Of a DNA stretch of 64,000 nt, positions 46,985 through 62,934 are shown piece after piece (positions within the stretch are counted from its first letter, which is position 1; each line of letters starts with the position of its first letter). Made by a program: the position numbers and the translations under genes. The notes beneath the pieces were generated by a model. It was not told the origin of the DNA and did no database searches. It saw only the letters and a program-made list of their open reading frames with translations. Source of the DNA: an uncultured Bacteroidota bacterium (GTDB taxonomy: Bacteria > CLD3 > SB21). The stretch covers positions 24,485 through 88,484 of the forward strand of contig CAYPYN010000002.1 in assembly GCA_964415295.1 (NCBI GenBank). Reading direction: 5' to 3'.

Positions 46985-48370
46985 TCACTTATGCACCTTC
47001 CTCACGAAATCCTCTACTTCAGGAACACCGCCCTGGAGAACGAGATAACCGTTGTAAGGCTCGCGTTCGGTGATGTCGTAACCGATCGGCGTAAGCATCA
47101 TCTTTTTTACTTCGACGGGATCTTCGGTCTGGCCGAGCACCCAGCCGAGCTTGATATAAGCCGTCTCGGGAAGCATATTGCCCAGCGGCACGACGCCTTT
47201 GGCCATCATGTCGCGCCCGGTGTCATAAACGAACATGTGCACGTAGCCCCAGATCGTCTGCACAACCATGAAGACCGACACGTCCTTGGCTTTGGCCTCT
47301 TCGATGGCAGGATAGAGTTCTTTATTTACATGTCCCAGCCCTGTGCCGACGATGACGATGCCTTTGTAGCCTTTTTCGATCATGGAGAACATCACGTCGG
47401 GTTTCATGCCCGGGTAATAATACAGCATCGTCGCTTTTTCGCTGAAGAACGGATAGATGTCCACATTCTTATCCTTTCGGCGGTGATTGTATTCCTTTTT
47501 GATCGGCGTGATCTTTTTTCTCGTGACCATCGCCACGGGCGTGTCACCGATCGTACGGAAAGTTGATCGATACGACGAATGCATCTTGCGCACGCGCGTG
47601 CCGCGGTGCAGTAAGCCGTATTCATCCGACGTCGGGCCGAACATACACACCATGACTTCCGCGATGTCGGCATTGCCGGCGGTATACATCGCGTGCATGA
47701 GATTCAGCGCCGCATCGGAACTCGGCCGGTCGGACGACCTTTGAGACCCAACCATGATGATGGGCACAGGCGAATTCTGCACCATGTACGTCAGGACGGC
47801 AGCGGTATGCTGGAGCGTGTCCGTGCCGTGGCCGATCACGATGCCGTCGATGCCGTGGCGTATCTCTTTGACAATGGCATGCGCCAGCGCGATGTATTGC
47901 TTCGGGCCCATATTCTCGCTGAATACGGCGAAGATCTTCTCCGTCTCCAGATTGCAGATCTCGGCGAGTTCGGGCACCGCGCCGTAGAGTTCCCCCGGCG
48001 AAAAGGCCGGGATCACGGCGCCCGTTCGGTAGTCGAGCCTCGATGCGATCGTGCCGCCCGTGCCGAATAGTTTCACGTACGGCAGGCCTTTGGTGGTCGG
48101 AAACTGTTTCTCCGGTATCTGGTAATTGGCTTTTTTGTAGCCGGTTTCGCGGATGGCGGTAATGGTCTTCACGTCCACGCCGATATTGTACCCCGACGCG
48201 ATCTTCAGAACGATGTGTTCGTCGTCGGTATTCTCCGCACGCGGGAGTATCGTTCCCTGAAAAAGTCCGCGCGTGGATTCGATATCCACCGACGCCCATA
48301 CGCGGGCCGTGTATTTTTTGAGGACCTCTAAGGCGCGTCCTTTGTAGCCCTGGAATATGTTGTCGCTCAT
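46985..48370 (-). CDS. gatD: Glutamyl-tRNA(Gln) amidotransferase subunit D-like (archaeal-type GatD)
   Basis: 461 aa; GatD-specific N-terminal domain (GYKGRALEVLKKY..., DEHIVLKIASGYNIGV) followed by asparaginase-type domain with GTGGTIAS. Confidence 0.75.
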   Translation of the reverse strand: MSDNIFQGYKGRALEVLKKYTARVWASVDIESTRGLFQGTILPRAENTDDEHIVLKIASGYNIGVDVKTITAIRETGYKKANYQIPEKQFPTTKGLPYVKLFGTGGTIASRLDYRTGAVIPAFSPGELYGAVPELAEICNLETEKIFAVFSENMGPKQYIALAHAIVKEIRHGIDGIVIGHGTDTLQHTAAVLTYMVQNSPVPIIMVGSQRSSDRPSSDAALNLMHAMYTAGNADIAEVMVCMFGPTSDEYGLLHRGTRVRKMHSSYRSTFRTIGDTPVAMVTRKKITPIKKEYNHRRKDKNVDIYPFFSEKATMLYYYPGMKPDVMFSMIEKGYKGIVIVGTGLGHVNKELYPAIEEAKAKDVSVFMVVQTIWGYVHMFVYDTGRDMMAKGVVPLGNMLPETAYIKLGWVLGQTEDPVEVKKMMLTPIGYDITEREPYNGYLVLQGGVPEVEDFVRKVHK

Positions 48371-48930: not shown

Positions 48931-50952
48931 TTAAGATATCGACGCTTGAACCTTCCCGCTCAATTCCGTCAGATTCATATTCCCCAGCGCCATGCGGCTC
49001 AATTGGCCCATCACCCAGCGGGAACAGGCGCCGTCCAGACTGGAATTATCGATCTGCGAGAATTTTTTGATCATGAACGGGATCAGTTCCGTGATCTCGT
49101 TCTTGGTCGCGGCTTTGTAACGGATATTGAGCAATACGGAATCAAAATCCAGTTTGGGATGATGGTAATATTCCACCAGCATCATACCCGCAATATTCAG
49201 TTCCATCCCGCGGTCTTTGAGGAACTTGAACAGGTCGTAGATCCGGTCGTAACTGAAATCCTTGGCGGTGGTATAATGATTCTCAACATATTTCATCTGA
49301 TGCCCGAGGAAGATACCGGTGTGGCGGTGCGGGATGCCGAGTTCGTCATGGATCTTCTCCATCAGCCCTACGAGATTCTTTTTGAGAATGAATGTATACG
49401 TGTCTTCCGGAACATTCCACGAGCGGAGCTGTTGTATACGGTCAAAGACGTCCACAGGAATGGCGCGGCGGATCGCTTCGATCTTGTCGTCATCGAGCGG
49501 GATAGGTGCGGAATCGGTATCCGGGTACATGCGGTCTGCGCCGGGAAGAACGCGTTCGAATACCGTCGTACCGTCATGCGATGACTTACGCGTCTCATTG
49601 GGAACGCCTTTGAAGGCCATGCGGCAGCGTTCCTCCACCGTCTCGATCGCCGTGGGAATATCCTCTTTCGGCCCCCACAGAACGATCCATGCATCATCGC
49701 CGCTGCAATTAAGCAATTTAACGATTCTCTCCGACTCCTGTTCGGCAATGTGCGTACGCATATTCTCCGAATGGATCATATTGGGTTTCTCAATACACGC
49801 GATCACTTTGAGCCGCGATGATATCTCATCGGCGAACATCTGACCGGGCTGAGTAAAATGCGATAATATACTCTTGAAGCCCGGCAGTCGAACGGCTACG
49901 ATCTCGTGTTTGGCAACTTTCGCCGCGGCCATCGGTTCGTAACTGAACGTCCAATCGTCCGGTTCAAGTTTGACGGATTCTGTTTTCCACGAATCCGGAT
50001 TGCGGACCTTTTTTTTCAGAAGTTCCACGATGCGCAGGAGCGCGAACTGCCGGAATGCCTCGTTGTGCGTCAATTGGGGCATCCAGCGCGTGTGCGCAAC
50101 GCCTTTGATCTCGACGCGTGTGCCGCCGCGGCAGCTGACATTGACGTCGGCGCGGGTGGAACCGATACCGGTCCGGACTTTTCCAGTACTGCGGTTCAAA
50201 AAACGGATATAATCCGCGCCTTCTTTTACTTCATCGGGATTCACAAAATCCGCATGCGTCACCGTTTCGATCAGCGGCATGCCGAGACGGTCCGTCTTGT
50301 ACACGCGCACATGGCCGATGTCGGAAATTTCCCGGCAGGAATCCTCTTCGATGCTCAACTGGATGAGGTTGACCGTCTTGTGTTTCAGCTGGATCTTCCC
50401 GCCGACGCCGATGATGGCCGTTCTCTGGAATCCGGTCGGAATACTGCCGTCGAGGTACTGCTTGCGGGTGATGTGAACTTCTCCCACGATATTCATCTTA
50501 TTCAAGATCGAGATCTCCAGCGCGATATCGAGCGCTTCCGGATCCATGGCGAAAGGCGGCGTATCGTCCACCTCATACGTACACGCCGTTTTATTTTTGA
50601 TGCGGTAAATAATGTTCTTTCGGGTCTTGAATTCCATCAGCGCCGTACCGTCGTACTCGCCCAGTTCGCTCAGCGTCGGGCGCATGTGGCGAATGACCTC
50701 CGCGTCGTAATCGTCGTGGGCGTTGTATTTTCCGGCCGGACAGCGGCAGAAAAGTTTCCGCCGTGTCAGCAGCTGCTGGTGAACTTCCAGTCCGGACTTG
50801 AATCCGATCCGGTCGTAATCTTCCTGCGTGGCATCTTTCCGGCTGACGTATCCGATGGCTTGTTTGCTTTGTTCGTAATTCTGCTGGGGATCAAAAGGCT
50901 GGTTCATGAGGATTGTGCACCATGTGAAGCATCGATTGATGTTGTCTTGCAA
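48931..50952 (-). CDS. gatE: Glutamyl-tRNA(Gln) amidotransferase subunit E-like (archaeal-type GatE)
   Basis: 673 aa; GatB/E catalytic core with GatE-type signature DYDRIGFKSGLEVHQQL...RKLFCRCP and insertion-sized extra length versus GatB. TTG start at 50952; alternative ATG at 50907. Confidence 0.75.
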   Translation of the reverse strand: MQDNINRCFTWCTILMNQPFDPQQNYEQSKQAIGYVSRKDATQEDYDRIGFKSGLEVHQQLLTRRKLFCRCPAGKYNAHDDYDAEVIRHMRPTLSELGEYDGTALMEFKTRKNIIYRIKNKTACTYEVDDTPPFAMDPEALDIALEISILNKMNIVGEVHITRKQYLDGSIPTGFQRTAIIGVGGKIQLKHKTVNLIQLSIEEDSCREISDIGHVRVYKTDRLGMPLIETVTHADFVNPDEVKEGADYIRFLNRSTGKVRTGIGSTRADVNVSCRGGTRVEIKGVAHTRWMPQLTHNEAFRQFALLRIVELLKKKVRNPDSWKTESVKLEPDDWTFSYEPMAAAKVAKHEIVAVRLPGFKSILSHFTQPGQMFADEISSRLKVIACIEKPNMIHSENMRTHIAEQESERIVKLLNCSGDDAWIVLWGPKEDIPTAIETVEERCRMAFKGVPNETRKSSHDGTTVFERVLPGADRMYPDTDSAPIPLDDDKIEAIRRAIPVDVFDRIQQLRSWNVPEDTYTFILKKNLVGLMEKIHDELGIPHRHTGIFLGHQMKYVENHYTTAKDFSYDRIYDLFKFLKDRGMELNIAGMMLVEYYHHPKLDFDSVLLNIRYKAATKNEITELIPFMIKKFSQIDNSSLDGACSRWVMGQLSRMALGNMNLTELSGKVQASIS

Positions 50953-51116: not shown

Positions 51117-51659
51117 CTACGCTCCATCCGCCTGATCGTCACCACGGCGTAAAGGATGCGGCGGAAGATTAAGCACTTCTTCCGAGAAATAACTGACGAT
51201 GTACTCGATCATGCCCTTAACGGACGTGTGTCCGATCGGCTCCATTTTATCGTTAACGATCGCGATATGGCGCGTTTCGTGCTTACGGAAAACCTTAACA
51301 GCCTCTTTGATCGGATCGGTCAGTTTGAGGCAAATGGGTTCTTTACGCATATAATCGTCAACCCTATCCTTAGCATAATCCGGACATTTGTCTGCGATCT
51401 TGTAAAGCAGATGGCGCTCGGTCAGTATTCCGATGAGTTTCATGTCCTTAACGACCATCACGCATCCCACGTTGTGGTCGCCCATCAACTTTACGGCATC
51501 CTTGAGCAGACTGCCGGATTGTACGATCAACGGAGCCGGCGGTTCTAAAAGACCGATCGGTTTGTTGAAATCCTCAATGTGGATCTCGTGTTTGTCCAGT
51601 TCACGTTCGAGTTCGTCCATGTGGACCAACTCGTCTTCCAATTCGTGTTGATTGGTCAT
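51117..51659 (-). CDS. CBS-domain pair protein
   Basis: Tandem CBS motifs (GCVMVVKDMKLIGILTERHLL, ...IAIVNDKMEPIGHTSVKGM); ATG at 51659. Confidence 0.6.
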   Translation of the reverse strand: MTNQHELEDELVHMDELERELDKHEIHIEDFNKPIGLLEPPAPLIVQSGSLLKDAVKLMGDHNVGCVMVVKDMKLIGILTERHLLYKIADKCPDYAKDRVDDYMRKEPICLKLTDPIKEAVKVFRKHETRHIAIVNDKMEPIGHTSVKGMIEYIVSYFSEEVLNLPPHPLRRGDDQADGA

Positions 51660-51670
51660 GGTCAAGTCTC

Positions 51671-52075
51671 CTAAAATTTCAGTTCGTCTATGATGTGATC
51701 AAGAATATGCTCGATGGTCAAAATACCGACCGGCTGACGATCTTTTCCAAGTACCACAAGACTTCGATATCCGCCCACCGACATTTCGTTGAGCGCATAC
51801 GCTGCCGAATCGTCGTTATAAAGGTACGTCGGATATTCATCCATCAACTGGCTGATCTTGAGGTTCTTCAGGTCGACGTTGCGTGACAGACTGCGCAGAA
51901 CATCCCGTTCGGTGAGGATCCCGGCCCATTTATCGCCGTCCTTGATAAGCACACAGCCCATCTGATGCTCTTTCATACTGATCACAGCGTCTTTGACCGA
52001 GGCGTCTTTGCTCAGGTAAAAAGGCTCCTTGGGATCTAACGTATTTACTTTGGATTTAACCAGACTTGCATTCAT
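51671..52075 (-). CDS. CBS-domain pair protein
   Basis: Tandem CBS motifs (GCVLIKDGDKWAGILTERDVL, ...LVVLGKDRQPVGILTIEHI). Confidence 0.6.
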   Translation of the reverse strand: MNASLVKSKVNTLDPKEPFYLSKDASVKDAVISMKEHQMGCVLIKDGDKWAGILTERDVLRSLSRNVDLKNLKISQLMDEYPTYLYNDDSAAYALNEMSVGGYRSLVVLGKDRQPVGILTIEHILDHIIDELKF

Positions 52076-52258: not shown

Positions 52259-53266
52259 CTACGCCCATTTTCCGAACCGTAGAAATTTGAAACCATCCGT
52301 ATGTTCATTCAATATTCTCTTCTTCTCATCATCCGAAACAAAGAATAATCCCGTTGCCAACGCATCGGTATCGCGGCAATTGTCGCCGATCACCGTTACG
52401 CTGGCAAATCCGGTGCGCTTTGGCATAGCCAGTTTCGGATTGATCAGATGGTGATACACATGACCTTCGGAAATGAAATACTGTTCATACGATCCCGAGG
52501 TAGCCACAGCCTGATCCTTCAGAGAAATCACTTCAATGATCTCCGAAGGGTTCTCCGGATCCTTTACTCCGACGCGCCAGGCTTTATCTTCGGAATTACC
52601 GCCAAGCGTTGCAATGTCGCCGCCAAGCCTTACCAGAGCCTGATCAATGCCTTCCTTCGCCAATACGGCTTTGGCGCGTTCCGATCCGTAACCTTTTCCA
52701 ATACCGCCAAGATCGATCTTAACGTCGGGCGTCAGCAGGCGAACCGTTGCGTGCGAGCCGTTTCTCGTCAGAAGGATCTTTTCCGAGAATTTAAGGTCGG
52801 CGAAACGAACCCATTGTTTTTCCGGCGGCGGTTCCGTCCGGTGCTTTATATCCCAGATGGAAGTGACTTTGCCCAAACCCGGTTCAAAGAATCCTTTCGT
52901 AGCATGCGACCAATGCAAAGCGCGTTCGATCAGGTCGGCCGTTTCATTGGAGATCCTGACATCCTGCGTATATCCCAGAAGATTGATCTGTCCTATTTCG
53001 CTGTTGTCCGAGAAATAGGTCAGCAATCGTTCCACACGGTTCAATTCCTCGTACGCGCTTTCGATGGCGCGAAACGCGAGACGTTCGTCGTCATGGACGA
53101 CCTGGATCTCGCCGATCGTTCCCATGAGCGGGCGCGTCATGCTGTACACGCGCCGGTTCCTGAATAGCACGGGACCAAGCCCTGCTCCCGCGATCAGGAA
53201 CAACGAACCTGCACCGATCTTTAAGAATTTTCTCCGGTCTATACCGGTCTTTGGGTTCTTCTCCAT
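52259..53266 (-). CDS. apbE: FAD:protein FMN transferase (ApbE family), Tat-signal
   Basis: Twin-arginine signal (DRRKFLKIGAG); ApbE-type motifs (GGIGKGY...); last gene of the Rnf cluster. Confidence 0.75.
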   Translation of the reverse strand: MEKNPKTGIDRRKFLKIGAGSLFLIAGAGLGPVLFRNRRVYSMTRPLMGTIGEIQVVHDDERLAFRAIESAYEELNRVERLLTYFSDNSEIGQINLLGYTQDVRISNETADLIERALHWSHATKGFFEPGLGKVTSIWDIKHRTEPPPEKQWVRFADLKFSEKILLTRNGSHATVRLLTPDVKIDLGGIGKGYGSERAKAVLAKEGIDQALVRLGGDIATLGGNSEDKAWRVGVKDPENPSEIIEVISLKDQAVATSGSYEQYFISEGHVYHHLINPKLAMPKRTGFASVTVIGDNCRDTDALATGLFFVSDDEKKRILNEHTDGFKFLRFGKWA

Positions 53267-53269
53267 ATG

Positions 53270-53455
53270 TTACCTTTCGCAAACTTTTTCGTCGTTGCAT
53301 CCATCGCATCGCCGTGCATGATCGGAACACGAAGAAGGAAGGTGTTCGAAATGATTCTTCGTTCGCATCTTACGGGCCAGGAACTGCACACCAAGCCAGC
53401 CCGTAGTCAGACAGGTTGCCGCTGTGATTCCGATGATGTATTGAGTAATTTCCAT
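53270..53455 (-). CDS. Small membrane protein with 4-Cys tail, NqrM/DUF539-like
   Basis: 61 aa: one TM helix (IIGITAATCLTTGWLGVQFL) then C-x6-C-x2-C-x5-C (CSDHARRCDGCNDEKVC); sits between rnfA and apbE. Confidence 0.4.
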   Translation of the reverse strand: MEITQYIIGITAATCLTTGWLGVQFLARKMRTKNHFEHLPSSCSDHARRCDGCNDEKVCER

Positions 53456-54049: not shown

Positions 54050-54697
54050 CTATGCTTTCTCCGCCAGTTTCATTTTCGCGCGTTCCGCCTGTTTACTCTT
54101 ATACCAGTTCACGAACAGCATCATAAAACCTAATAATAAAAATCCGCCCGGAGGCAGGATCATGATGACCCAAGGTTCGAAATGCGGACCGAAAAGGGAA
54201 ATACCAAACAGTGATCCGTTACCCAGAATTTCCCTGATTCCGCCCAGAGCCAACAACGCCAGAATGAACCCTACTCCCATTCCGAGCGCGTCCAATACAG
54301 AGAGCCACGCCGTATTCTTGTACGAAAAGGCTTCCTGTCTGCCCAGAATGATACAATTCACAACGATCAACGCGATAAATGCGCCGAGTTCTTTATGGAT
54401 CTTCGGAAATGCAGCCTGCAGTGAAAAATCAACGGCCGTCACAAAGGTTGCAATAATAACGACGAATGTCGTGATGCGGACCTGCTTGGGGATCCAGTTC
54501 CTCAAAACGGACACAAGCCAGCAGGATGCCACGAGAACAATCGTGGTCGCCAGTCCCATGGCTAAACCGTTGACCGCGGTATTGGTCACGGCCAGCGTGG
54601 GACACATGCCCAGTACGCTGACAAAGGTCGGGTTCTCTTTCCAGAGTCCTTTGATGAATTCCTGATATGCGCGTCCGTGTTCTTCCATCGAACTCAT
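54050..54697 (-). CDS. rnfE: Rnf electron-transport complex subunit E
   Basis: RnfE/NqrD pattern (VLGMCPTLAVTNTAVNGL, ...IALIVVNCIILGR); start overlaps the rnfG stop. Confidence 0.85.
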   Translation of the reverse strand: MSSMEEHGRAYQEFIKGLWKENPTFVSVLGMCPTLAVTNTAVNGLAMGLATTIVLVASCWLVSVLRNWIPKQVRITTFVVIIATFVTAVDFSLQAAFPKIHKELGAFIALIVVNCIILGRQEAFSYKNTAWLSVLDALGMGVGFILALLALGGIREILGNGSLFGISLFGPHFEPWVIMILPPGGFLLLGFMMLFVNWYKSKQAERAKMKLAEKA

Positions 54698-55380
54698 GGT
54701 TTTGTTCCGTAGGTTAATTGATTCTTCTGCACGTAGGCATCAATCGCCGTTCGCCATGTATCCAATGACTTCTGCATCGCACGCACGATCGCCTTGGACG
54801 AGATAGTGGCACCGGTGATCGTCTCTACCTGATTGGGCTGGGTTTTCTTGCCAGTTTTCACGGGTTCGATCTTGGGATCAACGGCCAGCGCGGTGAAATT
54901 GGATACAAAATGTTTATCCTTGTAGATCTTATCCCCTAAACCGGGTGTTTCCTTGCTGTCGAGTACTTCATAACCGATCACCATTTTTCCGACACCGTCA
55001 AAACCGTAGAGAATCCTAAGCATGTCGGCAAATCCCGGTTCGTTGCCGGGGATCGCAAAACCGATCACGGCGCCTTTTTCGTTGTACCCCAGAAAAATGC
55101 GAGGAACGGAACGATCGGACTGATTGACCTGCCTGACAAGCTGCCCGTTCTCGAGTATCATGGCCTCAAACTTGTTGCAACCCGGCAATACGCGGTATAC
55201 CGCTTCCTGCAAAGCTTCCTCTTTATTACGTTCAATGATGGGCAGCGTGAATACGTACGCACAAACCAGAACCAATCCTGAAAAGAATCCGGCTACCGCC
55301 AGCGTCGCGATCATCTGAAAGGAACTGGTTTCCTTCGTGGATAAGACAGGTATCTCTGTATGTATCTTCTGTTCTTCCAT
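54694..55380 (-). CDS. rnfG: Rnf electron-transport complex subunit G (FMN-binding)
   Basis: ATG at 55380 overlapping the rnfD stop by 1 nt; N-terminal TM helix; FMN-binding-domain motif (ITGATISSKAIV). The ORF-track 5' extension to 55536 overlaps rnfD. Confidence 0.75.
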   Translation of the reverse strand: MEEQKIHTEIPVLSTKETSSFQMIATLAVAGFFSGLVLVCAYVFTLPIIERNKEEALQEAVYRVLPGCNKFEAMILENGQLVRQVNQSDRSVPRIFLGYNEKGAVIGFAIPGNEPGFADMLRILYGFDGVGKMVIGYEVLDSKETPGLGDKIYKDKHFVSNFTALAVDPKIEPVKTGKKTQPNQVETITGATISSKAIVRAMQKSLDTWRTAIDAYVQKNQLTYGTKP

Positions 55381-56381
55381 TATTTCGTTCCGTAAACCCG
55401 GTATGGCGTAACCCTGTTGATCAGCGGCGTTACGGCATTCATCAGCAATATGGCATACATCACGCCTTCCGGCAATCCTCCGAAGATGCGGATCAGCACG
55501 ACCAGGAATCCTATACCCGCGCCGAATATCCAGCACCCTTTGATCGTAAAGGGCGAAGTCACCGGATCGGTTGCCATGAACACAGCACCCAACAAAAGTC
55601 CGCCGGAGAATATCATGTGCATCGGCGACGGGTAGATCGCGGGATTGACCAGATGCAGGATGCCCGATAGTAGTGCGGTTGCGGTCAAGATGGAAACCGG
55701 TATGTGCCAGTTGAATATCTTTCTCATAGCCAGATAAATGCCGACAAGGATGATGATCAGTCCGGAAGTTTCGCCGAGTGAACCGGCGGTATTCCCGATC
55801 ATCAGATTAAATAGGTCCGTAGCTTCGTGCTGGAATTTCATCGCTGAAAGCGGCGTGGCTCCCGTGAGGGCGTCCACTTTTTCTCCCTGGAAAAATGGAA
55901 TGGCCAGATTAGCACCGCGCGCCGATAAAAATTGACCGTCCGGAGCCGACCACGTGGTAATGGCTGTGGGAAAAGCCGCTTGCAGAAAGGCCCGGCCGAT
56001 CAGCGCCGGATTGAAAATGTTCTGTCCCAATCCGCCCCAGATCACTTTGCCCAGAACAACGGCGGCAATGCCTCCCAAGAACGCCATCCAGAGCGGAAAT
56101 CCCGGCGGCAGGGTCAGCGCGAATAAAAGCCCCGTGATCAAGGCGCTTCCGTCTTTCAGCGATTTGTAACGCGGTTTATCATTTGAGAAGAACCATTCTG
56201 TCGCAAAGCAGGACGCTACGCCGGTTGCGCACAGCAGGAAAGTGCTCAATCCGAAAAAATAATAAGCTGCGCCGATAACCGGGATGAGGGCGAAAACAAC
56301 CTGGTACATGATCCAAGGCGTGCTCACCTCATCATGCAGAAATGGAGACGTTGAAAGATTCAATTTAGACCGGTCTTCCAT
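55380..56381 (-). CDS. rnfD: Rnf electron-transport complex subunit D
   Basis: ATG at 56381 overlapping the rnfC stop by 1 nt; polytopic membrane protein with RnfD/NqrB pattern (...GATPLSAMKF..., FMATDPVTSP). Confidence 0.85.
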   Translation of the reverse strand: MEDRSKLNLSTSPFLHDEVSTPWIMYQVVFALIPVIGAAYYFFGLSTFLLCATGVASCFATEWFFSNDKPRYKSLKDGSALITGLLFALTLPPGFPLWMAFLGGIAAVVLGKVIWGGLGQNIFNPALIGRAFLQAAFPTAITTWSAPDGQFLSARGANLAIPFFQGEKVDALTGATPLSAMKFQHEATDLFNLMIGNTAGSLGETSGLIIILVGIYLAMRKIFNWHIPVSILTATALLSGILHLVNPAIYPSPMHMIFSGGLLLGAVFMATDPVTSPFTIKGCWIFGAGIGFLVVLIRIFGGLPEGVMYAILLMNAVTPLINRVTPYRVYGTK

Positions 56382-57724
56382 CAGTTCTTTGCCCTTCGTT
56401 CCCGAATAATACTTTTTGCCACGCGAAAACTCTGCACTAACGGAATGCCCGACGGGCAGACGAACGAGCATGACGCGCATTCAAAACAATCCATGATATG
56501 CAGCGGTTCCATATCCTCGTACAATCCTTTTCTCGCCAGAAGTCCCATTACGGAAGGATTGAGATACATCGGACAGACTTCCACGCAGCGCGCACAGCGG
56601 ATGCATTTGTATTCCGTCATATCCTGAACTTCATTATCCGTCAACACCAGAACGCCGGAAATACCTTTGGTCACCGGCACGTCGAGCGACTTCTGGGCAA
56701 TGCCCATCATCGGCCCGCCGAGCAGGATGCGAACGGCTTTGCTGGTCACTCCGCCGCAATAGTCGATCAGATGTTTGATAGGTGTTCCTACGGGAACCAT
56801 CAGATTCGCCGGACGCCGAATGGCCGTTCCCGTCACCGTCACCACGCGTTCGATCAGAGGAACCGACTGCGTGAAATACTGGGCCAGCGCCACCAGAGTT
56901 CCGACGTTGGAAACCAGCGTCTCAATATCAATAGGCAGTTTACCGGATGGAACTTCTTTGTCGAGCACCGCTTTGATCAGCATTTTTTCCGCACCTTGCG
57001 GGTATTTGACTTTCAGACCGATGACTTCATAGGTCACGTTCTGCTTTTTAACTTCTTCTTTCAGAACACGGATCGCATCGGGCTTATTATTCTCAATGCC
57101 TATATAAACTTTTTCCGCCGGTATGAAATGGCGCATGATCGTCAGGCCTTCGACCAGCTCTTTCGCAAATTCGACCATGATGCGGTGGTCGGCGGTCAGG
57201 AAAGGTTCGCATTCGCATCCGTTGGCGATGATGTAATTGCAGCGCTTGCCTTCGGGAATGGAGAATTTCACATGCGCCGGAAAACCCGCGCCGCCGAGGC
57301 CCACGAGTCCGGCCTGCTGAACGCCGTCTACAAATTCCTTGAACGAAAGATCCTGCCACGGACGCGGCTTCGGCATATCCACGGTCTGCGCAGAAAAAGG
57401 ATCGGCCTTGATCTTGATCGCCTGAACAAGCAATCCGTTGGGATGTTCACCGAGCTCGATCGCCGTAATCGTTCCGGTGACGGGAGCGTGCTGCGCCACA
57501 GACACAAAAGAAGCCGGTTTGGCGATCATCTGTCCGCGTTTCACGTGCTGGCCTTTTTGTACGATCGGGATCGAAGGCGCACCGGCGTGCTGGGAAAGCG
57601 GAACCACATACTCATCCACAAAGGGCATACGTTCCACGGCCAAAGTGCCGGTGAATTCTTTATACTCTTCCGGATGAACCCCGTGGTGAAAGGTCAAACG
57701 TTCTGTTGAATGATTATCTGTCAT
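56381..57724 (-). CDS. rnfC: Rnf electron-transport complex subunit C
   Basis: RnfC pattern with NADH-binding region (GLVGLGGAGFPAHVK) and two 4Fe-4S motifs (CIRCARCVEVCP, CFECASCSFVCP). Confidence 0.85.
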   Translation of the reverse strand: MTDNHSTERLTFHHGVHPEEYKEFTGTLAVERMPFVDEYVVPLSQHAGAPSIPIVQKGQHVKRGQMIAKPASFVSVAQHAPVTGTITAIELGEHPNGLLVQAIKIKADPFSAQTVDMPKPRPWQDLSFKEFVDGVQQAGLVGLGGAGFPAHVKFSIPEGKRCNYIIANGCECEPFLTADHRIMVEFAKELVEGLTIMRHFIPAEKVYIGIENNKPDAIRVLKEEVKKQNVTYEVIGLKVKYPQGAEKMLIKAVLDKEVPSGKLPIDIETLVSNVGTLVALAQYFTQSVPLIERVVTVTGTAIRRPANLMVPVGTPIKHLIDYCGGVTSKAVRILLGGPMMGIAQKSLDVPVTKGISGVLVLTDNEVQDMTEYKCIRCARCVEVCPMYLNPSVMGLLARKGLYEDMEPLHIMDCFECASCSFVCPSGIPLVQSFRVAKSIIRERRAKN

Positions 57725-57727
57725 AGT

Positions 57728-60700
57728 TCAATTCTTGTGACCGTAACCCGACAGTTCCATCAATTTATCCCGCAGTTTCGCTTTGACGGATTCCATCTGT
57801 GCGTTTTCCTGCGACCGAAGCTTTTCCTCGTATTCCGCCTTGATTTGTTCCAAAGCCGTATTCTGCTTGGCTGTCCATTCTTCGTCCAGGCGTTCTTTCA
57901 GTTTCTGCGGATACGGCGTGAGCATACCGGCGATCTCGCGGAGCGTTCTCCACGATAGATGCGCCGCTTCGGCGGCCCGCATGATTTCAGACGGAACTTC
58001 ATACTTCATTGTCCGATCCTGTTCCCCGATCCTGAGAACGCAGCACCGCTTGCCCGGACGATCATTTTCAGCAAGTGACAGATACTCGTTCATCGCCATG
58101 CCGTTTCTGTCATCGTCCGGTAATGCAGCGAAGGCATCACGGTATTCTTTCTGTTCGAACGCCCAATCGGCGAAGGTAACTATGTAATTACCGCCTGAAT
58201 AACTGACCGGCTTCGAAAAATCATCATACGATTCCGGGTTCGCGCCAAGATCCATGGACTCGGAATACAGCGGTTTCTTGTCGCTTGGTATAAAACGCAG
58301 CGCCGGGAAGGCTCGCGAACGAAGCGCCAATTGAAACATGGATGGATAATGCATGGCGATATCCGCCGGAGCATCCGGAGTCAGAACCCTGAAGAGCCCG
58401 GGATCGGCATGACGCAGGCCTTCGGTCAGCCCTTTGAAAAGATGTGCCGGATCGGCCAGCGAGGCCTGAAGGAAATAACATTTCTTAAGCGACAATATCG
58501 ATGTAGTAAGAGCCATTTGCTCTTGCCGGCTTTGGGCAGAACTCTTCACCGGATCGAACACAAATATTTTGACAGGCAGTTCCGAAGTCAGAAGTTCGAT
58601 CACCGATGGCACGTTCATTCCGGAGATCATAGCGGGATCGACAAAAAGCAGAACCGGAGGCACCATAGACTTTTCGGCCTCATTCAGATCGCTCCACGCA
58701 AGGCGCGCGATCTTAGCGTCATGCACATGCGGTTGATACTGATTTTGCGACTCGAGTTCCGCGCGGCGCAGTAATTTGATATTGTCCAACATTTGCCGCA
58801 CGTGACCTCTTACCAGGCCCAATATGAACGGCGCCGACGAAGGATCGTCCATTACGATGGCCGGTGAGGTGAATACGTTGAACGGCACCGATTTAGCCCA
58901 GTTCAATCCGTCGGAGCTGGACAGAACCGCGCCGAAACGGGATCGGCCTGTTCCTGCCGGACCTTTGGAGAGAACGAATGACAACTGCTTCAGATCTTTG
59001 ATCAGTCCGGCTACCCGTTCCACCCAGGCCGTTTCGATCACGCCGAATCGCTGGGTCTCGCTCAGTTTAGCCATGACATTATCTACAGTGACCCGTGCGG
59101 TTTCACCGGACAAACTGTTCAAAAGATTCTCGACATTGGCGATCGGCAGTGCGTCCTTCAGTTTGTTCTGGATCTTGTCGGTCAGGTTCTGAATGTATTG
59201 ATCGATCTCTTTCAATCTCTGATTGATCTCCGACTGCCGCATCGATTCCGTCACCGACGCGATCACATGCATCATGATCTTCTGCGAAACGCCGTCCTTT
59301 GAAGCGATGCCGCCGGCCATGGACATATAATAATTACGGCTCAGCATGATCGCCGCGATCGGATCATACGTGTCATCTTTGATAAGGGTTTGTATGATAT
59401 CTCCGCCGGTATCGGGCAGTTGTTCCCACACGCGGAAAGCGGATCGATGTGTATGCGATCGTTCCGCGCTTTGCGGCACCATCTCCAACGCGCCATCCGT
59501 GCATACATTGACGCACATTCCGCAGCCGGTACAGGCCTGAGGGTTGATCACGGCAGAATAAAGCAGACCGCTGCCTTTCATCTGGGACTCCGTCCGAGTG
59601 AAGAATCGATCCGTGGCCGAAACCGGCAGTTCGCGGACAAAATTTTCAACGGTCTTGATCTCTCCGGTTAAAGCCGTCAGTTTTTCGCCTTCGATCTTCA
59701 TTTGTGCAGCTAATTTTTCTGAAGAAGCCTGAAGAACGTCGGTGATCGAATATAGGTCTTTCACACCGGAAATCGCTTGGTTGATCAGTTTCGACAAATT
59801 TTTGATAACGGGCGGCGTCAGTTGATTCATGACAGTTCCCGCCGCCTGGGCCTTTTCAACCGCCGTTTTGATCATCGCTTCCGCGGAGATCACGATCGCC
59901 GGCATGGCCGATTCCGGGCAATACACGGAGCATTGTCCGCATCCGGTACACTTTTCCGGTGAGATAACGGGAATGAAAGAACGCGCCGCTCCTGCATCGG
60001 CAAAATTAGCCGTCGCCGCCGGCATGACAGGCACTGCTTGCAAAGGATCGGCCACTAATTCGCCCGTCTTCCCCTGCTCATAAAATATCCCCGTACGGTC
60101 GTAGAACTGGGAAACCTTGGAGTACGGCGGCCCGTGATCCTCATAGCGGCGCAGGGTCAGCGGTAATTCTTTGACCGCGGCCTGTTTTACAGACAACGCC
60201 GCTGATTCCAGTTTTTTTATTTCGGTCAGGCCTTTGGTAAAATGGTCTTTATTGCTATCCGATAAAACGATCCCTAATTCGTTCGTTACGAATTTTTCAA
60301 AATTCGCGGCTTCGGATTCGGCAACGGTTTCATTGAAGAACGGCGCGGTCGGCGTTAGCATAACTCCCTGCAGCCATTCGGGATCTTCAACGGCACCTAC
60401 AACGTGTTTTAAGTGCAATTTAAGTTCAGATACTTTCGATCGAACGGAATCTTCCAGTTCAATGACCTCTCCTTCATGACCGGATACGATCAAAACCGTT
60501 GCGCCGTTTTTCAAGCGGCCAAGACTGCCGGGACGATTGATAGAGACGGCATCCGTAATAAGGCAATCGATATCGTTCTCTTTTTCCAGAGTATACGGCC
60601 ACGGTTCTCGGGTTAAACTTAACTGTTTATCACCGGCCTTGACACGGGCCTTCAACCTGAATGCCAGCCATTCCGCGGCAGACTCTACAGAATCCATACT

Positions 60701-62059
60701 CTGTGGATGAGAGAAACCAATGGAAAACGTTTTATCAGAGGAGATTTCCGACTTTTCGGCGGCTTTCAACATGCGGCTTTCGAGCGCCGGGAAATCGCGA
60801 TTCAGATTTTGCAACAATATCTGCTGTTTGGGATACGAGGATGATTGGCGGGTAAGTTGCGAGCCAATAAAGAACCGCCTCTTACCTCCTTCAGCCATGT
60901 TCTCAAAAACAGAGACAAGATCGACATAATTCAGTTCTCCGTAGCGTCCGGCATATAACGTCGGCCGCTCACGTTCGCTGAGAGAAGGAAGTTCAGGATA
61001 AACCAGTGTTTTCTTATTGGAGGAATTCTGAACAGCTTTGTCCAGTGCAGACAGAACGTCCGTATACAACACGCTTTCGTTTTCAGCGCTCAGACTTTCA
61101 AGTATGGTCACGGCCTTCTTGCCGCGAAGTCGTTCACAGATCTCAGATTCAGGAAATGGCTTTGAAACATTCACATTCAAACAGCCGGCTTTGATCTTTT
61201 TTGATCTCAAATGATCCACAACCGCTGCGGCTTTTTGAAACGCGCTTCCTTGAACGATCAATATGTATTCCGCATCATTCATCTTATGTGAAGTGACGCC
61301 TGAGTAGTTTCGGCCCGTCAGTTTGCCGAATTCCGTACAAGCCTGCATCAGAATCGAGGAAGCGGAATCCCCGATGTAGATATCGTGTGCTGCCTTCTCC
61401 AGGGTCATGGCGCCGGGGTCTTTTGAAACGCCATTGATCGTCGGATAATCAAAATGGAACCAATTCGGAATGCGGCGGCGTGTCTTTCCGAAGATCATTT
61501 TTTGCGCCGTATTCGGACATTCGACGAAATCGTCAGCATCGCCCAGAAATCCGATCAGGGTTTTCGGATCAGGTATATGGACGTTTTCGAAGACGGCATT
61601 ATCGTAAGCCACTACGACGGGTATCATCGCCTGTTCGGCTGTTTTATGTGCAATAATGGTAAGATCCACAGTTTCCTGAACGCAGGACGAACGAAGAAGA
61701 ATACAGCCGGTTCCGGCAATCGCCTTCAGAAGTTCGGGATCGGAAACATCCGCATGAATAACATAAGGCACATGACGGCGAACGGCTTCCATCAAAGATG
61801 TGAGTTCACGGCCGGTATTCTTCGAATCCATTTGGCCTGAAGCCCTTAAGCCGGACATGGCCAGCCCCATGGCAAACGATGCACCGGCGTTTTGCACGCT
61901 GCTTCCGATCAGCGGCCGCCCAAAGATATTTTGACGGCTTGATGATACCGGATCCGTAAGACTTTCACTAACAGCCGATTCGATGATCCGAATCGCTTGC
62001 GATCCATTGGCTGTTATGCTTTTGCCCACGACCAGATCGCTATTTCTTTCTAACCTCAT
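57728..62059 (-). CDS. Pyruvate:ferredoxin-oxidoreductase-like giant protein with degenerate TPP-binding region
   Basis: 1443 aa; N-terminal PFOR domain I/II-like segments (RQNIFGRPL, LRSSCVQETVDLTIIAH, KLTGRNYSGV, AGRYGEL); two ferredoxin motifs (CTGCGQCSVYCP, CTGCGMCVNVCT); C-terminal about 560 aa without the PFOR C-x2-C, GDG or NTGGQ motifs. ATG overlaps rnfB stop (ATGA); stop 3 nt before rnfC ATG. Confidence 0.6.
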   Translation of the reverse strand: MRLERNSDLVVGKSITANGSQAIRIIESAVSESLTDPVSSSRQNIFGRPLIGSSVQNAGASFAMGLAMSGLRASGQMDSKNTGRELTSLMEAVRRHVPYVIHADVSDPELLKAIAGTGCILLRSSCVQETVDLTIIAHKTAEQAMIPVVVAYDNAVFENVHIPDPKTLIGFLGDADDFVECPNTAQKMIFGKTRRRIPNWFHFDYPTINGVSKDPGAMTLEKAAHDIYIGDSASSILMQACTEFGKLTGRNYSGVTSHKMNDAEYILIVQGSAFQKAAAVVDHLRSKKIKAGCLNVNVSKPFPESEICERLRGKKAVTILESLSAENESVLYTDVLSALDKAVQNSSNKKTLVYPELPSLSERERPTLYAGRYGELNYVDLVSVFENMAEGGKRRFFIGSQLTRQSSSYPKQQILLQNLNRDFPALESRMLKAAEKSEISSDKTFSIGFSHPQSMDSVESAAEWLAFRLKARVKAGDKQLSLTREPWPYTLEKENDIDCLITDAVSINRPGSLGRLKNGATVLIVSGHEGEVIELEDSVRSKVSELKLHLKHVVGAVEDPEWLQGVMLTPTAPFFNETVAESEAANFEKFVTNELGIVLSDSNKDHFTKGLTEIKKLESAALSVKQAAVKELPLTLRRYEDHGPPYSKVSQFYDRTGIFYEQGKTGELVADPLQAVPVMPAATANFADAGAARSFIPVISPEKCTGCGQCSVYCPESAMPAIVISAEAMIKTAVEKAQAAGTVMNQLTPPVIKNLSKLINQAISGVKDLYSITDVLQASSEKLAAQMKIEGEKLTALTGEIKTVENFVRELPVSATDRFFTRTESQMKGSGLLYSAVINPQACTGCGMCVNVCTDGALEMVPQSAERSHTHRSAFRVWEQLPDTGGDIIQTLIKDDTYDPIAAIMLSRNYYMSMAGGIASKDGVSQKIMMHVIASVTESMRQSEINQRLKEIDQYIQNLTDKIQNKLKDALPIANVENLLNSLSGETARVTVDNVMAKLSETQRFGVIETAWVERVAGLIKDLKQLSFVLSKGPAGTGRSRFGAVLSSSDGLNWAKSVPFNVFTSPAIVMDDPSSAPFILGLVRGHVRQMLDNIKLLRRAELESQNQYQPHVHDAKIARLAWSDLNEAEKSMVPPVLLFVDPAMISGMNVPSVIELLTSELPVKIFVFDPVKSSAQSRQEQMALTTSILSLKKCYFLQASLADPAHLFKGLTEGLRHADPGLFRVLTPDAPADIAMHYPSMFQLALRSRAFPALRFIPSDKKPLYSESMDLGANPESYDDFSKPVSYSGGNYIVTFADWAFEQKEYRDAFAALPDDDRNGMAMNEYLSLAENDRPGKRCCVLRIGEQDRTMKYEVPSEIMRAAEAAHLSWRTLREIAGMLTPYPQKLKERLDEEWTAKQNTALEQIKAEYEEKLRSQENAQMESVKAKLRDKLMELSGYGHKN

Positions 62060-62934
62060 CTTAATTCTTCCTCAGGTATGATTTCAACCCGGCCAACCGG
62101 CAATAAGGTGGTTGGTTTCTTATTGAATTGTTTTCCTTCGACCCATACGATCGCGTTCGTCGGGCAGCGCCGCGTGGCGTCGGGAGTTGCCAGTTCGTTC
62201 TTACTATAGTCAATGACCGGCAGATTGTTCTTCATTTGTATAAGTCCCGGCGCCGCATCGGATACGCAGCGGGTACACGCATTGCAGGCGACGGAACAAC
62301 GTTCCAGCGCATCGTCGCCCTCCAGAAGGGATTTGCACTGCACAATGAGCTTCTGGCTTACCGGCATGATGACAAAAAGATTCTTTGGACATATCTCGAC
62401 GCAGTCGTTGCAGCAGGTACATAATTCCGGCGTTACGACCGGCAGACCGTCCTCGTTCATCGTGATAGCTTTGAATTCGCAGACGTGTTCGCAGTCCGCA
62501 AGACCCAGGCAGCCCCAGACGCAATCTTTGGGACCGCCGGTCACCATCGCGGCGCTGCGGCAGGTTCTCTGCCCTAAGTAGTCGGCTTGATTGTGGCTTT
62601 CTTGCTTCCCGCCGGCGCATAATACCCGCGCCGTACGCTTTTCCTCATGTCCTGCGGCGACGCCGAGGAATGCGGCAATAGACTCCACTGCGGTTGGTGA
62701 ACTGACCGTACATTTTCCCGGGGCGGATTCTCCGACAACAAGGCTCTCCGCAAACGCATGACAGCCGGGCTTACCGCAGCCGCCGCAGTTCGTTCCGGGC
62801 AGCATGCCTTCCACCTGCTCAATGCGCGGATCTTCGTATACGCGGAGTTTCTTGTAGGCGACCGCAAGAAGGATCGCAAAGAATACCCCGAGTCCTACCA
62901 TGATGATGACGGCAACTATTATTTCTCCAACCAC
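62056..62934 (-). CDS. rnfB: Rnf electron-transport complex subunit B (Fe-S)
   Basis: N-terminal TM helix, LPGTNCGGCGKPGC motif and additional Cys clusters (CVWGC, CTCCNDCVEICP, CNACTRC); GTG start at 62934 (alternative ATG at 62901). Confidence 0.8.
   Translation of the reverse strand: MVGEIIVAVIIMVGLGVFFAILLAVAYKKLRVYEDPRIEQVEGMLPGTNCGGCGKPGCHAFAESLVVGESAPGKCTVSSPTAVESIAAFLGVAAGHEEKRTARVLCAGGKQESHNQADYLGQRTCRSAAMVTGGPKDCVWGCLGLADCEHVCEFKAITMNEDGLPVVTPELCTCCNDCVEICPKNLFVIMPVSQKLIVQCKSLLEGDDALERCSVACNACTRCVSDAAPGLIQMKNNLPVIDYSKNELATPDATRRCPTNAIVWVEGKQFNKKPTTLLPVGRVEIIPEEELR

What the first reader, a model, noticed from the sequence alone, without database searches (positions are those of the whole stretch)
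53270..53455. NqrM-like 4-Cys single-TM protein in an Rnf rather than Nqr cluster
The 61-aa protein (one TM helix plus C-x6-C-x2-C-x5-C) matches the general description of NqrM/DUF539 (single helix, four conserved Cys, encoded beside apbE), a factor known from Na+-NQR maturation. Here it is wedged between rnfA and apbE (8 bp after the rnfA stop, 4 bp before the apbE start), which would imply a maturation role for an Rnf complex.
Basis: partly seen in the sequence, partly recalled or inferred. Interest (0 to 1): 0.45.

Follow-up and report, generated by a model that had tools for sequence, protein, structure and literature searches.

The report
Small Cys-rich membrane protein after rnfA
A real, conserved 61-residue membrane protein with a cysteine-rich tail sits at the end of one special type of Rnf ion-pump operon; it is not a member of the NqrM family, looks faintly like the membrane anchor of subunit RnfB, and probably helps build or feed the pump's buried iron-sulfur centre.

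Summary
The ORF at 53270-53455 (-) is real. It encodes one confident TM helix plus a four-Cys cytoplasmic tail, and it is under purifying selection (pN 0.17-0.38, synonymous sites saturated).

A small TM+Cys ORF lies directly after rnfA in the window and 38 other loci. Wherever the upstream region is visible, the cluster is rnfB / PFOR-like gene / rnfCDGEA / X. apbE follows X in only 10 of 39 cases, so X is tied to rnfA, not to apbE.

The NqrM assignment fails:
- No PF04400 or NCBIfam hit for 53 members, even at E<=10.
- The NqrM Cys motif is absent.
- Profile-profile similarity to true NqrM is marginal (z 1.8-3.3).

Similarity to the RnfB N-terminus (anchor helix plus CxxCxxxxC) is better supported, at z 3.8-5.8 with 0 of 120 block permutations reaching the observed score. 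A full rnfB is nevertheless present at 62056-62934.

X is therefore an unannotated, clade-specific Rnf accessory protein. My best guess is that it docks on the RnfA/E core and presents a Cys-bound Fe or Fe-S site, acting like NqrM in function but not in family. An extra small subunit is nearly as likely. Function is untested.

The parts
53270..53455 (-). Small ORF 'X': 61 aa, with a TM helix (about residues 2-29), the juxtamembrane motif RKMRTKNHFE, and the Cys tail C43-x6-C50-x2-C53-x5-C59
   Evidence: sequence; homologues; purifying selection; AlphaFold2 helix 2-29; conservation of L16, G19, W20, V23, Q24, A27, T32, K33, N34, H35, C43, C50, C53
53464..54042 (-). rnfA (192 aa). It carries the conserved Cys26 and Cys112 of the half-helices that bind the intramembrane [2Fe-2S]
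   Evidence: TIGR01943, 231.3 >= 229.3; C26 and C112 invariant; PMC12174285 for the role of these Cys
54050..54697 (-). rnfE (215 aa)
   Evidence: TIGR01948, 240.3 >= 213.4; RsxE NF009070, 257.9
54694..55380 (-). rnfG. The probable start is the ATG at 55380, giving 228 aa as in L001; the longest ORF runs to 55536
   Evidence: (TIGR01947, 104.5 >= 102; FMN_bind)
55380..56381 (-). rnfD. The probable start is the ATG at 56381, overlapping the rnfC stop; the longest ORF runs to 56480
   Evidence: (TIGR01946, 324.2 >= 207)
56381..57724 (-). rnfC (447 aa) with intact Nuo51-type FMN/NADH domain and 2x[4Fe-4S] motifs. This marks a true Rnf, not Nqr
   Evidence: TIGR01945, 527.1 >= 246
57728..62059 (-). 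1443-aa PFOR-like protein inserted between rnfB and rnfC. It has partial POR_N, PFOR_II and two Fer4 motifs, with no TPP_enzyme_C hit. It co-occurs with X in every locus where the upstream region is visible
62056..62934 (-). rnfB (292 aa): TM helix, FeS domain (CGGCGKPGC...C) and ferredoxin domains
   Evidence: PF04060, 46.5 bits; TIGR01944, 70.3 >= 68.7
52259..53266 (-). apbE (335 aa), an FAD:protein FMN transferase with a twin-arginine-like N-terminus (RRKFLK)
   Evidence: PF02424, 233.8 bits

Best explanation
X is a clade-specific accessory protein of one Rnf subtype (rnfB / PFOR-like / rnfCDGEA / X).

Shown:
- It is a real protein under purifying selection and is always encoded directly after rnfA.
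- It has one TM helix.
- By the positive-inside rule, the tail that follows the helix is cytoplasmic. That tail almost always carries four Cys, but with variable spacing.

Inferred:
- The helix docks through one conserved face (L16, G19/W20, V23/Q24, A27) and the TKNH.D collar onto the Rnf membrane core, most likely on the RnfA/RnfE side.
- The tail binds Fe or a small Fe-S centre at the cytoplasmic mouth of the RnfA/E dimer.
- It serves the intramembrane [2Fe-2S] cluster held by RnfA/RnfE Cys residues, most likely by loading or repairing it.

That is the job proposed for NqrM in Na+-NQR. X therefore works like NqrM without belonging to DUF539. It may derive from the N-terminal anchor plus CxxCxxxxC part of RnfB.
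For: Architecture and topology:
- Helix 2-29.
- 3-5 Lys/Arg in the 12 residues after the helix against 0-1 before it.
- Four or more tail Cys in most of 54 members.

Genomic linkage:
- X or an X-like TM+Cys ORF follows rnfA in the window and 38 other loci.
- It never occurs where rnfB follows rnfA (38 loci) or in the six rnfBCDGEA loci without the PFOR-like gene.
- The 8-nt and 3-nt intergenic gaps indicate one operon.
- apbE, a known Rnf/Nqr maturation gene, follows directly in 10 of 39 loci.

The target cofactor exists: RnfA C26 and C112 are invariant and RnfE has the matching GMCP and VNC motifs. [quoted passage not shown]

Variable Cys spacing with a constant Cys count fits a flexible metal-transfer site better than a fixed redox cluster.

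Docking: the most conserved residues lie on one helix face plus the juxtamembrane collar. There is also remote similarity to the RnfB anchor and first Cys motif:
- Diverse X set: hhalign score 47.5, probability 96%, null 19.5 +/- 4.8, 0 of 120 permutations reaching it.
- Narrow family: score 33.0 against null 16.4 +/- 4.3, 0 of 120.
- The session's protein comparison gave probability 66% against RnfB sequences taken from PDB entries.
Against: - There is no experimental data of any kind.
- No sequence homology to NqrM could be shown.
- Most Rnf operon types lack X, so Rnf in general does not need it.
- The helix is more conserved than the Cys tail, which suits a stably bound subunit at least as well as a transient chaperone.
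- A few members have only 1-3 tail Cys (P0029, P0037, L004, P0005).
- One PFOR-type cluster (L026) has no X.
- The tail is predicted only at low confidence.
Confidence: 0.4

Rival explanations
1. X is a genuine seventh, stoichiometric subunit of this Rnf subtype. It would be a 'micro-RnfB': an anchor helix plus a tethered mini Fe-S or metal site. It either stabilises the RnfA/E/B membrane assembly or gives a second electron entry to the RnfA/E [2Fe-2S], for example from the co-inherited PFOR-like protein or from the FNR-type reductase that follows X in some clusters.
For: - Similarity to the RnfB N-terminus exceeds block-permuted controls.
- The helix face and TKNH.D collar are the best conserved parts.
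- X sits in the slot held by rnfB in rnfCDGEAB operons and by nqrF in nqr operons (PMC4014512).
- It co-occurs strictly with the PFOR-like gene (17 loci plus the window).
- A 285-aa FNR-type reductase follows X in L013, L014 and L034.
- RnfB's own FdI is a mobile, tethered cluster domain, and T. maritima RnfB is only anchor plus FdI (PMC9588780).
Against: - A full RnfB with its own anchor helix and FeS domain is present, so the docking site may already be taken.
- The fourth Cys of the RnfB motif (x17-C) is missing.
- Cys spacing varies widely, and some members have fewer than three Cys. That is unusual for an obligatory redox cluster.
- The Pfam FeS model PF04060 gives no hit.
Confidence: 0.3
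2. X is a true but extremely diverged homologue of NqrM (DUF539), carried over from or shared with the Nqr lineage that arose in Bacteroidota.
For: - Same architecture and same operon-end niche beside apbE.
- The diverse X set scores 32.0 against an NqrM profile, with null 18.8 +/- 4.0 and 0 of 120 permutations reaching it.
- NQR is thought to have evolved from Rnf in Bacteroidota (PMC4014512, PMC12174285).
Against: - No PF04400 hit in 53 members at E<=10.
- The narrow family and the pooled set are not clearly above controls (5 of 120 and 4 of 120).
- After realignment only a 17-column C-terminal stretch (C...C plus following residues) pairs, or only the TM helix.
- The NqrM motif is absent (against 58).
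- The NqrM profile used here is drawn only from Gammaproteobacteria.
Confidence: 0.1
3. X is one more generic small TM+Cys-rich membrane peptide of the 'FeoB-associated Cys-rich membrane protein' kind. It would have a general metal-handling or unknown role not specific to Rnf.
For: Sub-threshold PF12669 hits in 6 of 31 and 3 of 22 members. The best is 19.8 bits (gathering cutoff 27), E 9.8e-4, covering nearly the whole 44-position model.
Against: - All hits are below the gathering cutoff.
- Every context examined is rnfA, never feoB.
- The conserved GW..VQ..A...TKNH.D signature is specific to the family.
Confidence: 0.12
4. The ORF is spurious or non-coding.
For: It is short, has no database annotation, and an antisense 66-aa ORF overlaps it.
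Against: Conserved across dozens of loci at the same position, with strong purifying selection at the protein level.
Confidence: 0.01

Closest known systems
NqrM (DUF539, PF04400), maturation factor of Na+-NQR
   Same: - About 60-75 aa, with a single N-terminal TM helix, basic residues after it and four Cys in the tail.
- Encoded at the end of the operon of an Rnf/Nqr-type pump, next to apbE (in 10 of 39 X loci).
- The presumed target, the [2Fe-2S] between RnfA/E or NqrE/D, is conserved.
   Different: - No HMM hit, and profile-profile similarity is marginal.
- NqrM motif is GSCGG-x9-C-x-C-PEP-C (C-x11-C-x-C-x3-C). X has C-x2-C-x-C-x3-6-C, CC-x2-C-x3-7-C, or in the window C-x6-C-x2-C-x5-C.
- In X the helix and TKNH.D collar are the most conserved parts.
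- X precedes apbE and directly follows rnfA. It occurs in Rnf clusters, not Nqr clusters.
N-terminal anchor helix plus start of the FdI / FeS domain (PF04060) of RnfB
   Same: - TM helix followed by a basic 'A(R/K)(R/K)F' stretch, a short linker and C-G-x-C-x4-C.
- End-to-end hhalign match of 58-61 columns that exceeds block-permuted controls.
- X occupies the gene slot that rnfB has in rnfCDGEAB operons.
   Different: - X stops after 20-35 tail residues.
- It lacks the x17-C fourth ligand and the FdI fold.
- It has no PF04060 hit and no ferredoxin domains.
- A complete rnfB coexists in the same cluster.
FeoB-associated Cys-rich membrane protein (PF12669)
   Same: A tiny single-TM protein with a CGxC/GC-rich tail. 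It gives the best sub-threshold Pfam similarity.
   Different: - All hits are below the gathering score.
- The context is rnfA, not feoB.
- X has its own conserved helix and collar signature.
RseC/MucC (PF04246), Cys-rich membrane protein acting with E. coli Rsx (Rnf homologue)
   Same: - A Cys-rich membrane protein functionally tied to an Rnf-type complex.
- E. coli RseC has C-x5-C-x2-C-x5-C, close to the window protein's C-x6-C-x2-C-x5-C.
- Weak hits of 10 X members (8 of 31 and 2 of 22) to the last RseC TM helix.
   Different: - In RseC the Cys motif is N-terminal and is followed by two TM helices, which is the opposite order.
- hhalign probability is 0.5%.
- Pfam E-values are 0.1 or worse.

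Membership tests
NqrM / DUF539 (PF04400) | Match to the Pfam PF04400 profile, or to any NCBIfam model | tested here: not met
   No hit at E<=10 for the window protein, 31 family representatives or 22 divergent relatives. The authentic NqrM proteins retrieved all carry PF04400.
NqrM / DUF539 (PF04400) | Conserved motif GSCGG ... C-x-C-P-E-P-C-D (four invariant Cys, C-x11-C-x-C-x3-C) | tested here: not met
   The motif comes from 15 true NqrM proteins. X members have other spacings and no GSCGG or CPEPC.
NqrM / DUF539 (PF04400) | Profile-profile similarity beyond the TM helix | tested here: inconclusive
   only the helix aligned, probability 50%; z 3.3 (0 of 120) for the diverse set, but 2.3 (5 of 120) and 1.8 (4 of 120) for the narrow and pooled sets. 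The NqrM profile is gammaproteobacterial only.
NqrM / DUF539 (PF04400) | Single N-terminal TM helix with a cytoplasmic tail carrying four Cys | tested here: met
NqrM / DUF539 (PF04400) | Encoded with apbE downstream of the nqr structural genes | tested here: not met
   The cluster is Rnf. X lies between rnfA and apbE, and apbE is adjacent in only 10 of 39 loci.
NqrM / DUF539 (PF04400) | Required for maturation (Fe centre of the D/E-type subunits) and not part of the mature complex | not testable with these tools
   Needs genetics and biochemistry.
RnfB N-terminal module (anchor helix + FeS domain PF04060) | Match to PF04060 or to the rnfB models | tested here: not met
   No hit. The true RnfB of the window scores 46.5 bits on PF04060.
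RnfB N-terminal module (anchor helix + FeS domain PF04060) | Profile-profile similarity over helix, linker and Cys motif | tested here: met
   Scores 47.5, 33.0 and 37.1 against permutation nulls of 19.5, 16.4 and 17.7 (sd about 4.5), with 0 of 120 reaching the observed score in each case. One search gave probability 66%, and only 2.6% when using 4 RnfB sequences and the narrow family. The support is moderate, not proof of homology.
RnfB N-terminal module (anchor helix + FeS domain PF04060) | C-x2-C-x4/5-C-x17-C ligand set for a [4Fe-4S] | tested here: not met
   The fourth Cys at x17 is absent in all members. The window protein has C-x6-C-x2-C-x5-C. The motif is taken from PMC9588780.
FeoB-associated Cys-rich membrane protein (PF12669) | Score at or above the Pfam gathering cutoff (27 bits) | tested here: not met
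   Best score 19.8 bits (P0018). The window protein has no hit.
RseC/MucC (PF04246) | Pfam match; N-terminal Cys motif followed by two TM helices | tested here: not met
   Best E 0.1, to the last TM helix only. hhalign probability 0.5%. The domain order is opposite.

The most novel reading that the evidence does not exclude
X is a free-standing copy of the RnfB-type anchor helix with a minimal Cys4 iron site, sitting in the gene slot that nqrF occupies in nqr operons. In some clusters an FNR-type FAD/NAD(P)H reductase gene follows it directly (L013, L014, L034).

X, alone or with that reductase or the PFOR-like protein, would then form a second, previously unseen electron-entry module of a Bacteroidota-type Rnf. 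It would also be a living analogue of the intermediate proposed for the Rnf-to-Nqr transition, in which a reductase recruited the RnfB helix (PMC4014512).
Probability: 0.15. Interest if true: 0.75.

Novelty: new variant of a known kind. Interest (0 to 1): 0.5.

Why it matters
How the unusual [2Fe-2S] cluster buried in the membrane between RnfA and RnfE is inserted is unknown for Rnf. For the sister enzyme Na+-NQR, only NqrM has been implicated.

X is a conserved, unannotated, operon-linked Cys-rich membrane protein specific to one Rnf subtype. It gives a concrete candidate to test by deletion, co-purification and metal analysis.

It also marks a distinct Rnf gene-cluster type (rnfB / PFOR-like / rnfCDGEA / X). 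Where the source organism is named, the carriers are Bacteroidota MAGs. This is the phylum in which NQR is thought to have arisen from Rnf, so X may bear on how new input modules were grafted onto the Rnf/Nqr core.

If X is only a minor accessory peptide, the finding is a modest annotation gain.

Tried and rejected
1. 'X replaces a missing RnfB'. I held this view until, when tblastn with RnfB N-termini found a full rnfB at 62056-62934, upstream of the PFOR-like gene. Rejected.

2. Membership of DUF539/NqrM. Pfam and NCBIfam scans of 53 members and hhalign against authentic NqrM proteins all failed. Rejected as a family assignment.

3. Homology to RseC. hhalign probability 0.5%, with only weak Pfam hits to the TM helix. 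Rejected.

4. Solved structures. A profile search of the PDB found nothing at E<=10.

5. AlphaFold2 of X with a 31-sequence alignment gave only the helix. No fold search was run because the tail is low confidence and too short.

6. The primary NqrM papers (PMC4751810, PMC6964743) are not held. Statements about NqrM rest on reviews (PMC12174285, PMC6209661) and, where marked, on my memory.

7. Literature searches for a prior description of X or of the PFOR-like Rnf cluster found nothing relevant.

8. The first hhalign against only four RnfB sequences gave probability 2.6%. The relation became visible only with 43 RnfB N-termini and more divergent X sequences.

Full report
**The observation**

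The minus strand of 53270-53455 holds a 61-codon ORF (ATG to TAA). It encodes MEITQYIIGITAATCLTTGWLGVQFLARKMRTKNHFEHLPSSCSDHARRCDGCNDEKVCER. The Cys pattern C-x6-C-x2-C-x5-C is as described.

Family scans confirm the neighbours. rnfA scores 231.3 bits on TIGR01943 (cutoff 229.3). rnfE, rnfG, rnfD and rnfC all pass their Rnf cutoffs and score far lower on the Nqr models. RnfC keeps its FMN/NADH domain and two 4Fe-4S motifs. ApbE scores 233.8 bits on PF02424. The cluster is therefore Rnf, not Nqr.

**It is a real gene**

- A word-index search found 3 and then 13 homologues of 50-79 aa.
- An exhaustive profile search of 1.84 billion representatives found 30 clusters, all 57-89 aa.
- Against orthologues, the non-synonymous difference is 0.17-0.38 while synonymous sites are saturated at 0.62-1.1.
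- AlphaFold2 with a 31-sequence alignment predicts helix 2-29 at block-mean pLDDT 85-96 and an unstructured tail at 54-66.
- Members have 3-5 Lys/Arg just after the helix and 0-1 before it. The positive-inside rule therefore places the Cys tail in the cytoplasm.

**Conservation pattern**

The best conserved positions are:
- L16, G19, W20, V23, Q24 and A27, which fall on one face of the helix;
- T32, K33, N34, H35 and D37 at the membrane surface;
- three Cys (C43, C50, C53 in window numbering).

Most of 54 distinct members have four tail Cys, but the spacing varies. It is C-x2-C-x-C-x3-6-C in most, CC-x2-C-x3-7-C in others, C-x6-C-x-C-x4-C in the window's close relatives, and C-x6-C-x2-C-x5-C in the window itself. 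A few members have only 1-3.

**Genomic context**

I corrected my own reading here. I first thought the cluster lacked rnfB. A tblastn with RnfB N-termini then found a complete rnfB at 62056-62934 (PF04060 46.5 bits; TIGR01944 70.3 >= 68.7). A 1443-aa PFOR-like gene separates it from rnfC. The order on the minus strand is rnfB, PFOR-like, rnfC, D, G, E, A, X, apbE, CBS, CBS.

I then examined 97 loci that carry an rnfA relative:
- 12 came from genome and contig look-ups with X itself.
- 5 came from look-ups of divergent family members.
- 80 came from a metagenome scan with an RnfA alignment.

The census of what follows rnfA gave:
- rnfB in 38 loci;
- a small TM+Cys ORF in 36, plus L017 and L018, whose family members have fewer than three Cys, making 38;
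- neither in 15;
- sequence too short to tell in 6.

Every X-bearing locus whose upstream region is visible (17 plus the window) has the PFOR-like gene before rnfC. The six rnfBCDGEA loci without the PFOR-like gene have no X. One PFOR-type locus (L026) lacks X. apbE directly follows X in 10 of 39 cases (the window, L001-L004, L017, L018, L020, L028, L029).

X is thus a hallmark of one Rnf cluster type and is tied to rnfA, not to apbE. The named genome loci are all Bacteroidota MAGs: Cyclobacteriaceae, Flavobacteriales, Chitinophagales and Saprospiraceae.

**Test of the NqrM idea**

- PF04400 gave no hit at E<=10 for the window protein, 31 representatives or 22 divergent relatives.
- NCBIfam gave nothing relevant, and the PDB gave nothing.
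- I retrieved authentic NqrM proteins, all carrying PF04400 and many named '(Na+)-NQR maturation NqrM'. Fifteen of them share GSCGG-x9-C-x-C-PEP-C, a motif that X lacks.
- hhalign of the family against them aligned only the TM helix, at probability 50%.

As a control I permuted alignment columns within the helix, linker, Cys and tail blocks, which keeps the composition of each region. Against that null, similarity to NqrM is marginal: z 3.3 (0 of 120) for the divergent set, 2.3 (5 of 120) for the narrow family and 1.8 (4 of 120) for the pooled set. X is not a demonstrable DUF539 member.

**Other candidates**

- RseC: hhalign probability 0.5%. Pfam hits to its last helix have E>=0.1.
- FeoB-associated Cys-rich membrane protein (PF12669): best 19.8 bits against a cutoff of 27.
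- RnfB N-terminus: with four PDB-derived sequences the narrow family gave only 2.6%. With 43 RnfB N-termini taken from the loci, the divergent X set gave score 47.5, probability 96%, over 58-61 columns. The alignment pairs helix with helix, 'RRFA..HPE' with 'KKF.VEEDP', and 'GCGxC..C' with 'NCGACGxxGC'.

The block-permutation nulls were 19.5 +/- 4.8 (maximum 30.4; 0 of 120) for the divergent set, 16.4 +/- 4.3 for the narrow family (observed 33.0; 0 of 120), and 17.7 +/- 4.6 for the pooled set (observed 37.1; 0 of 120). The protein comparison gave probability 66% for the divergent set against the PDB-derived RnfB alignment.

This is moderate evidence that X is related to the RnfB anchor helix plus the first three Cys of its FdI motif. 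It is not proof. X lacks the fourth ligand of the motif, which PMC9588780 gives as CxxCxxxxxCx17C, and it has no PF04060 hit.

**How it most likely works**

Established knowledge: RnfA and RnfE each give two Cys to an intramembrane [2Fe-2S]. That cluster is reached from the cytoplasm by the tethered, mobile FdI domain of RnfB. In NQR, insertion of the equivalent cluster seems to need the small membrane-bound NqrM, which is co-transcribed with apbE (PMC12174285; PMC6209661). The window's RnfA and RnfE keep these Cys.

My best explanation (confidence 0.4) is that X docks by its conserved helix face on the RnfA/E side of the core. It would hold Fe or a small Fe-S centre on its flexible Cys tail at the cytoplasmic mouth and load or repair the buried cluster. 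That is an NqrM-like function without NqrM ancestry.

Almost as likely (0.3) is that X is a stoichiometric mini-subunit, either structural or a second electron entry. This rival is favoured by three points: the helix is better conserved than the tail, X resembles RnfB, and X co-occurs with the PFOR-like gene. The coexisting full RnfB and the loose Cys pattern count against it.

A very diverged NqrM homologue (0.1), a generic FeoB-associated-type peptide (0.12) and a spurious ORF (0.01) are less likely.

**Novelty and verdict**

No source names the family; those that give a name say 'hypothetical protein'. No paper found describes it.

The family assignment is wrong, the apbE link is secondary, and the maturation role is plausible but untested.

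I rate this a new variant of a known kind, namely small Cys-rich membrane accessory proteins of Rnf/Nqr-type pumps. Interest is 0.5.

Noticed in passing
window 57728-62059 (-); also L001-L013, L025, L026, L031, L032, L034, L039, L042, L057: A 1443-aa PFOR-like protein is inserted between rnfB and rnfC. It has partial POR_N, PFOR_II and two 4Fe-4S motifs, with no TPP_enzyme_C hit, and scores only 120 bits on TIGR02176 against a cutoff of 911. It defines a distinct Rnf cluster type and co-occurs with X. Its function is unknown.
   Followed up: partly
window 46985-48370 (-) and 48931-50952 (-): An archaeal-type Glu-tRNA(Gln) amidotransferase pair. GatD scores 490.8 bits on NF003217 and 486.6 on TIGR02153. 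GatE scores 382.2 bits on TIGR00134 (cutoff 319.55). This is unexpected in what looks like a Bacteroidota-related bacterial genome.
   Followed up: no
L013 7286-8146, L014 759-1616, L034 10003-10860: In three loci X is followed directly by a 285-286-aa FNR-type reductase (NAD_binding_1, plus FAD_binding_6 in L013). rnfB comes next in L014 and L034, and a DHO_dh gene in L013. TM+Cys4 followed by an FAD/NAD(P)H reductase recalls a split NqrF.
   Followed up: partly
window 62972-64000 (-), runs off the window end: The gene upstream of rnfB encodes a protein of more than 342 aa. Its only recognisable part is a C-terminal single-cluster ferredoxin domain (Fer4_13, 36.4 bits). There is no NCBIfam hit.
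   Followed up: no
window 52259-53266 (-): ApbE begins MEKNPKTGIDRRKFLKIGAGSLFLIAG, a twin-arginine-like signal. That is consistent with export to flavinylate the periplasmic FMN sites of RnfG and RnfD.
   Followed up: no
window 51117-52075 (-); L001-L004, L018: Two CBS-pair proteins (134 and 182 aa) follow apbE. They are conserved in the same place in the closest relatives.
   Followed up: no
window 55380 and 56381: The longest ORFs for rnfG (280 aa) and rnfD (366 aa) overlap the upstream genes by 100-157 nt. Comparison with L001 (228 and 333 aa) suggests the true starts are ATGs that overlap the preceding stop codon by 1 nt, which is typical translational coupling.
   Followed up: partly
L041, L049, L053: A further Rnf cluster layout, rnfCDGEA then apbE then rnfB. 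In L041 apbE starts about 74 nt after rnfA, and in L049 and L053 about 0.9-1 kb after it. None of the three has an X-like ORF after rnfA.
   Followed up: no
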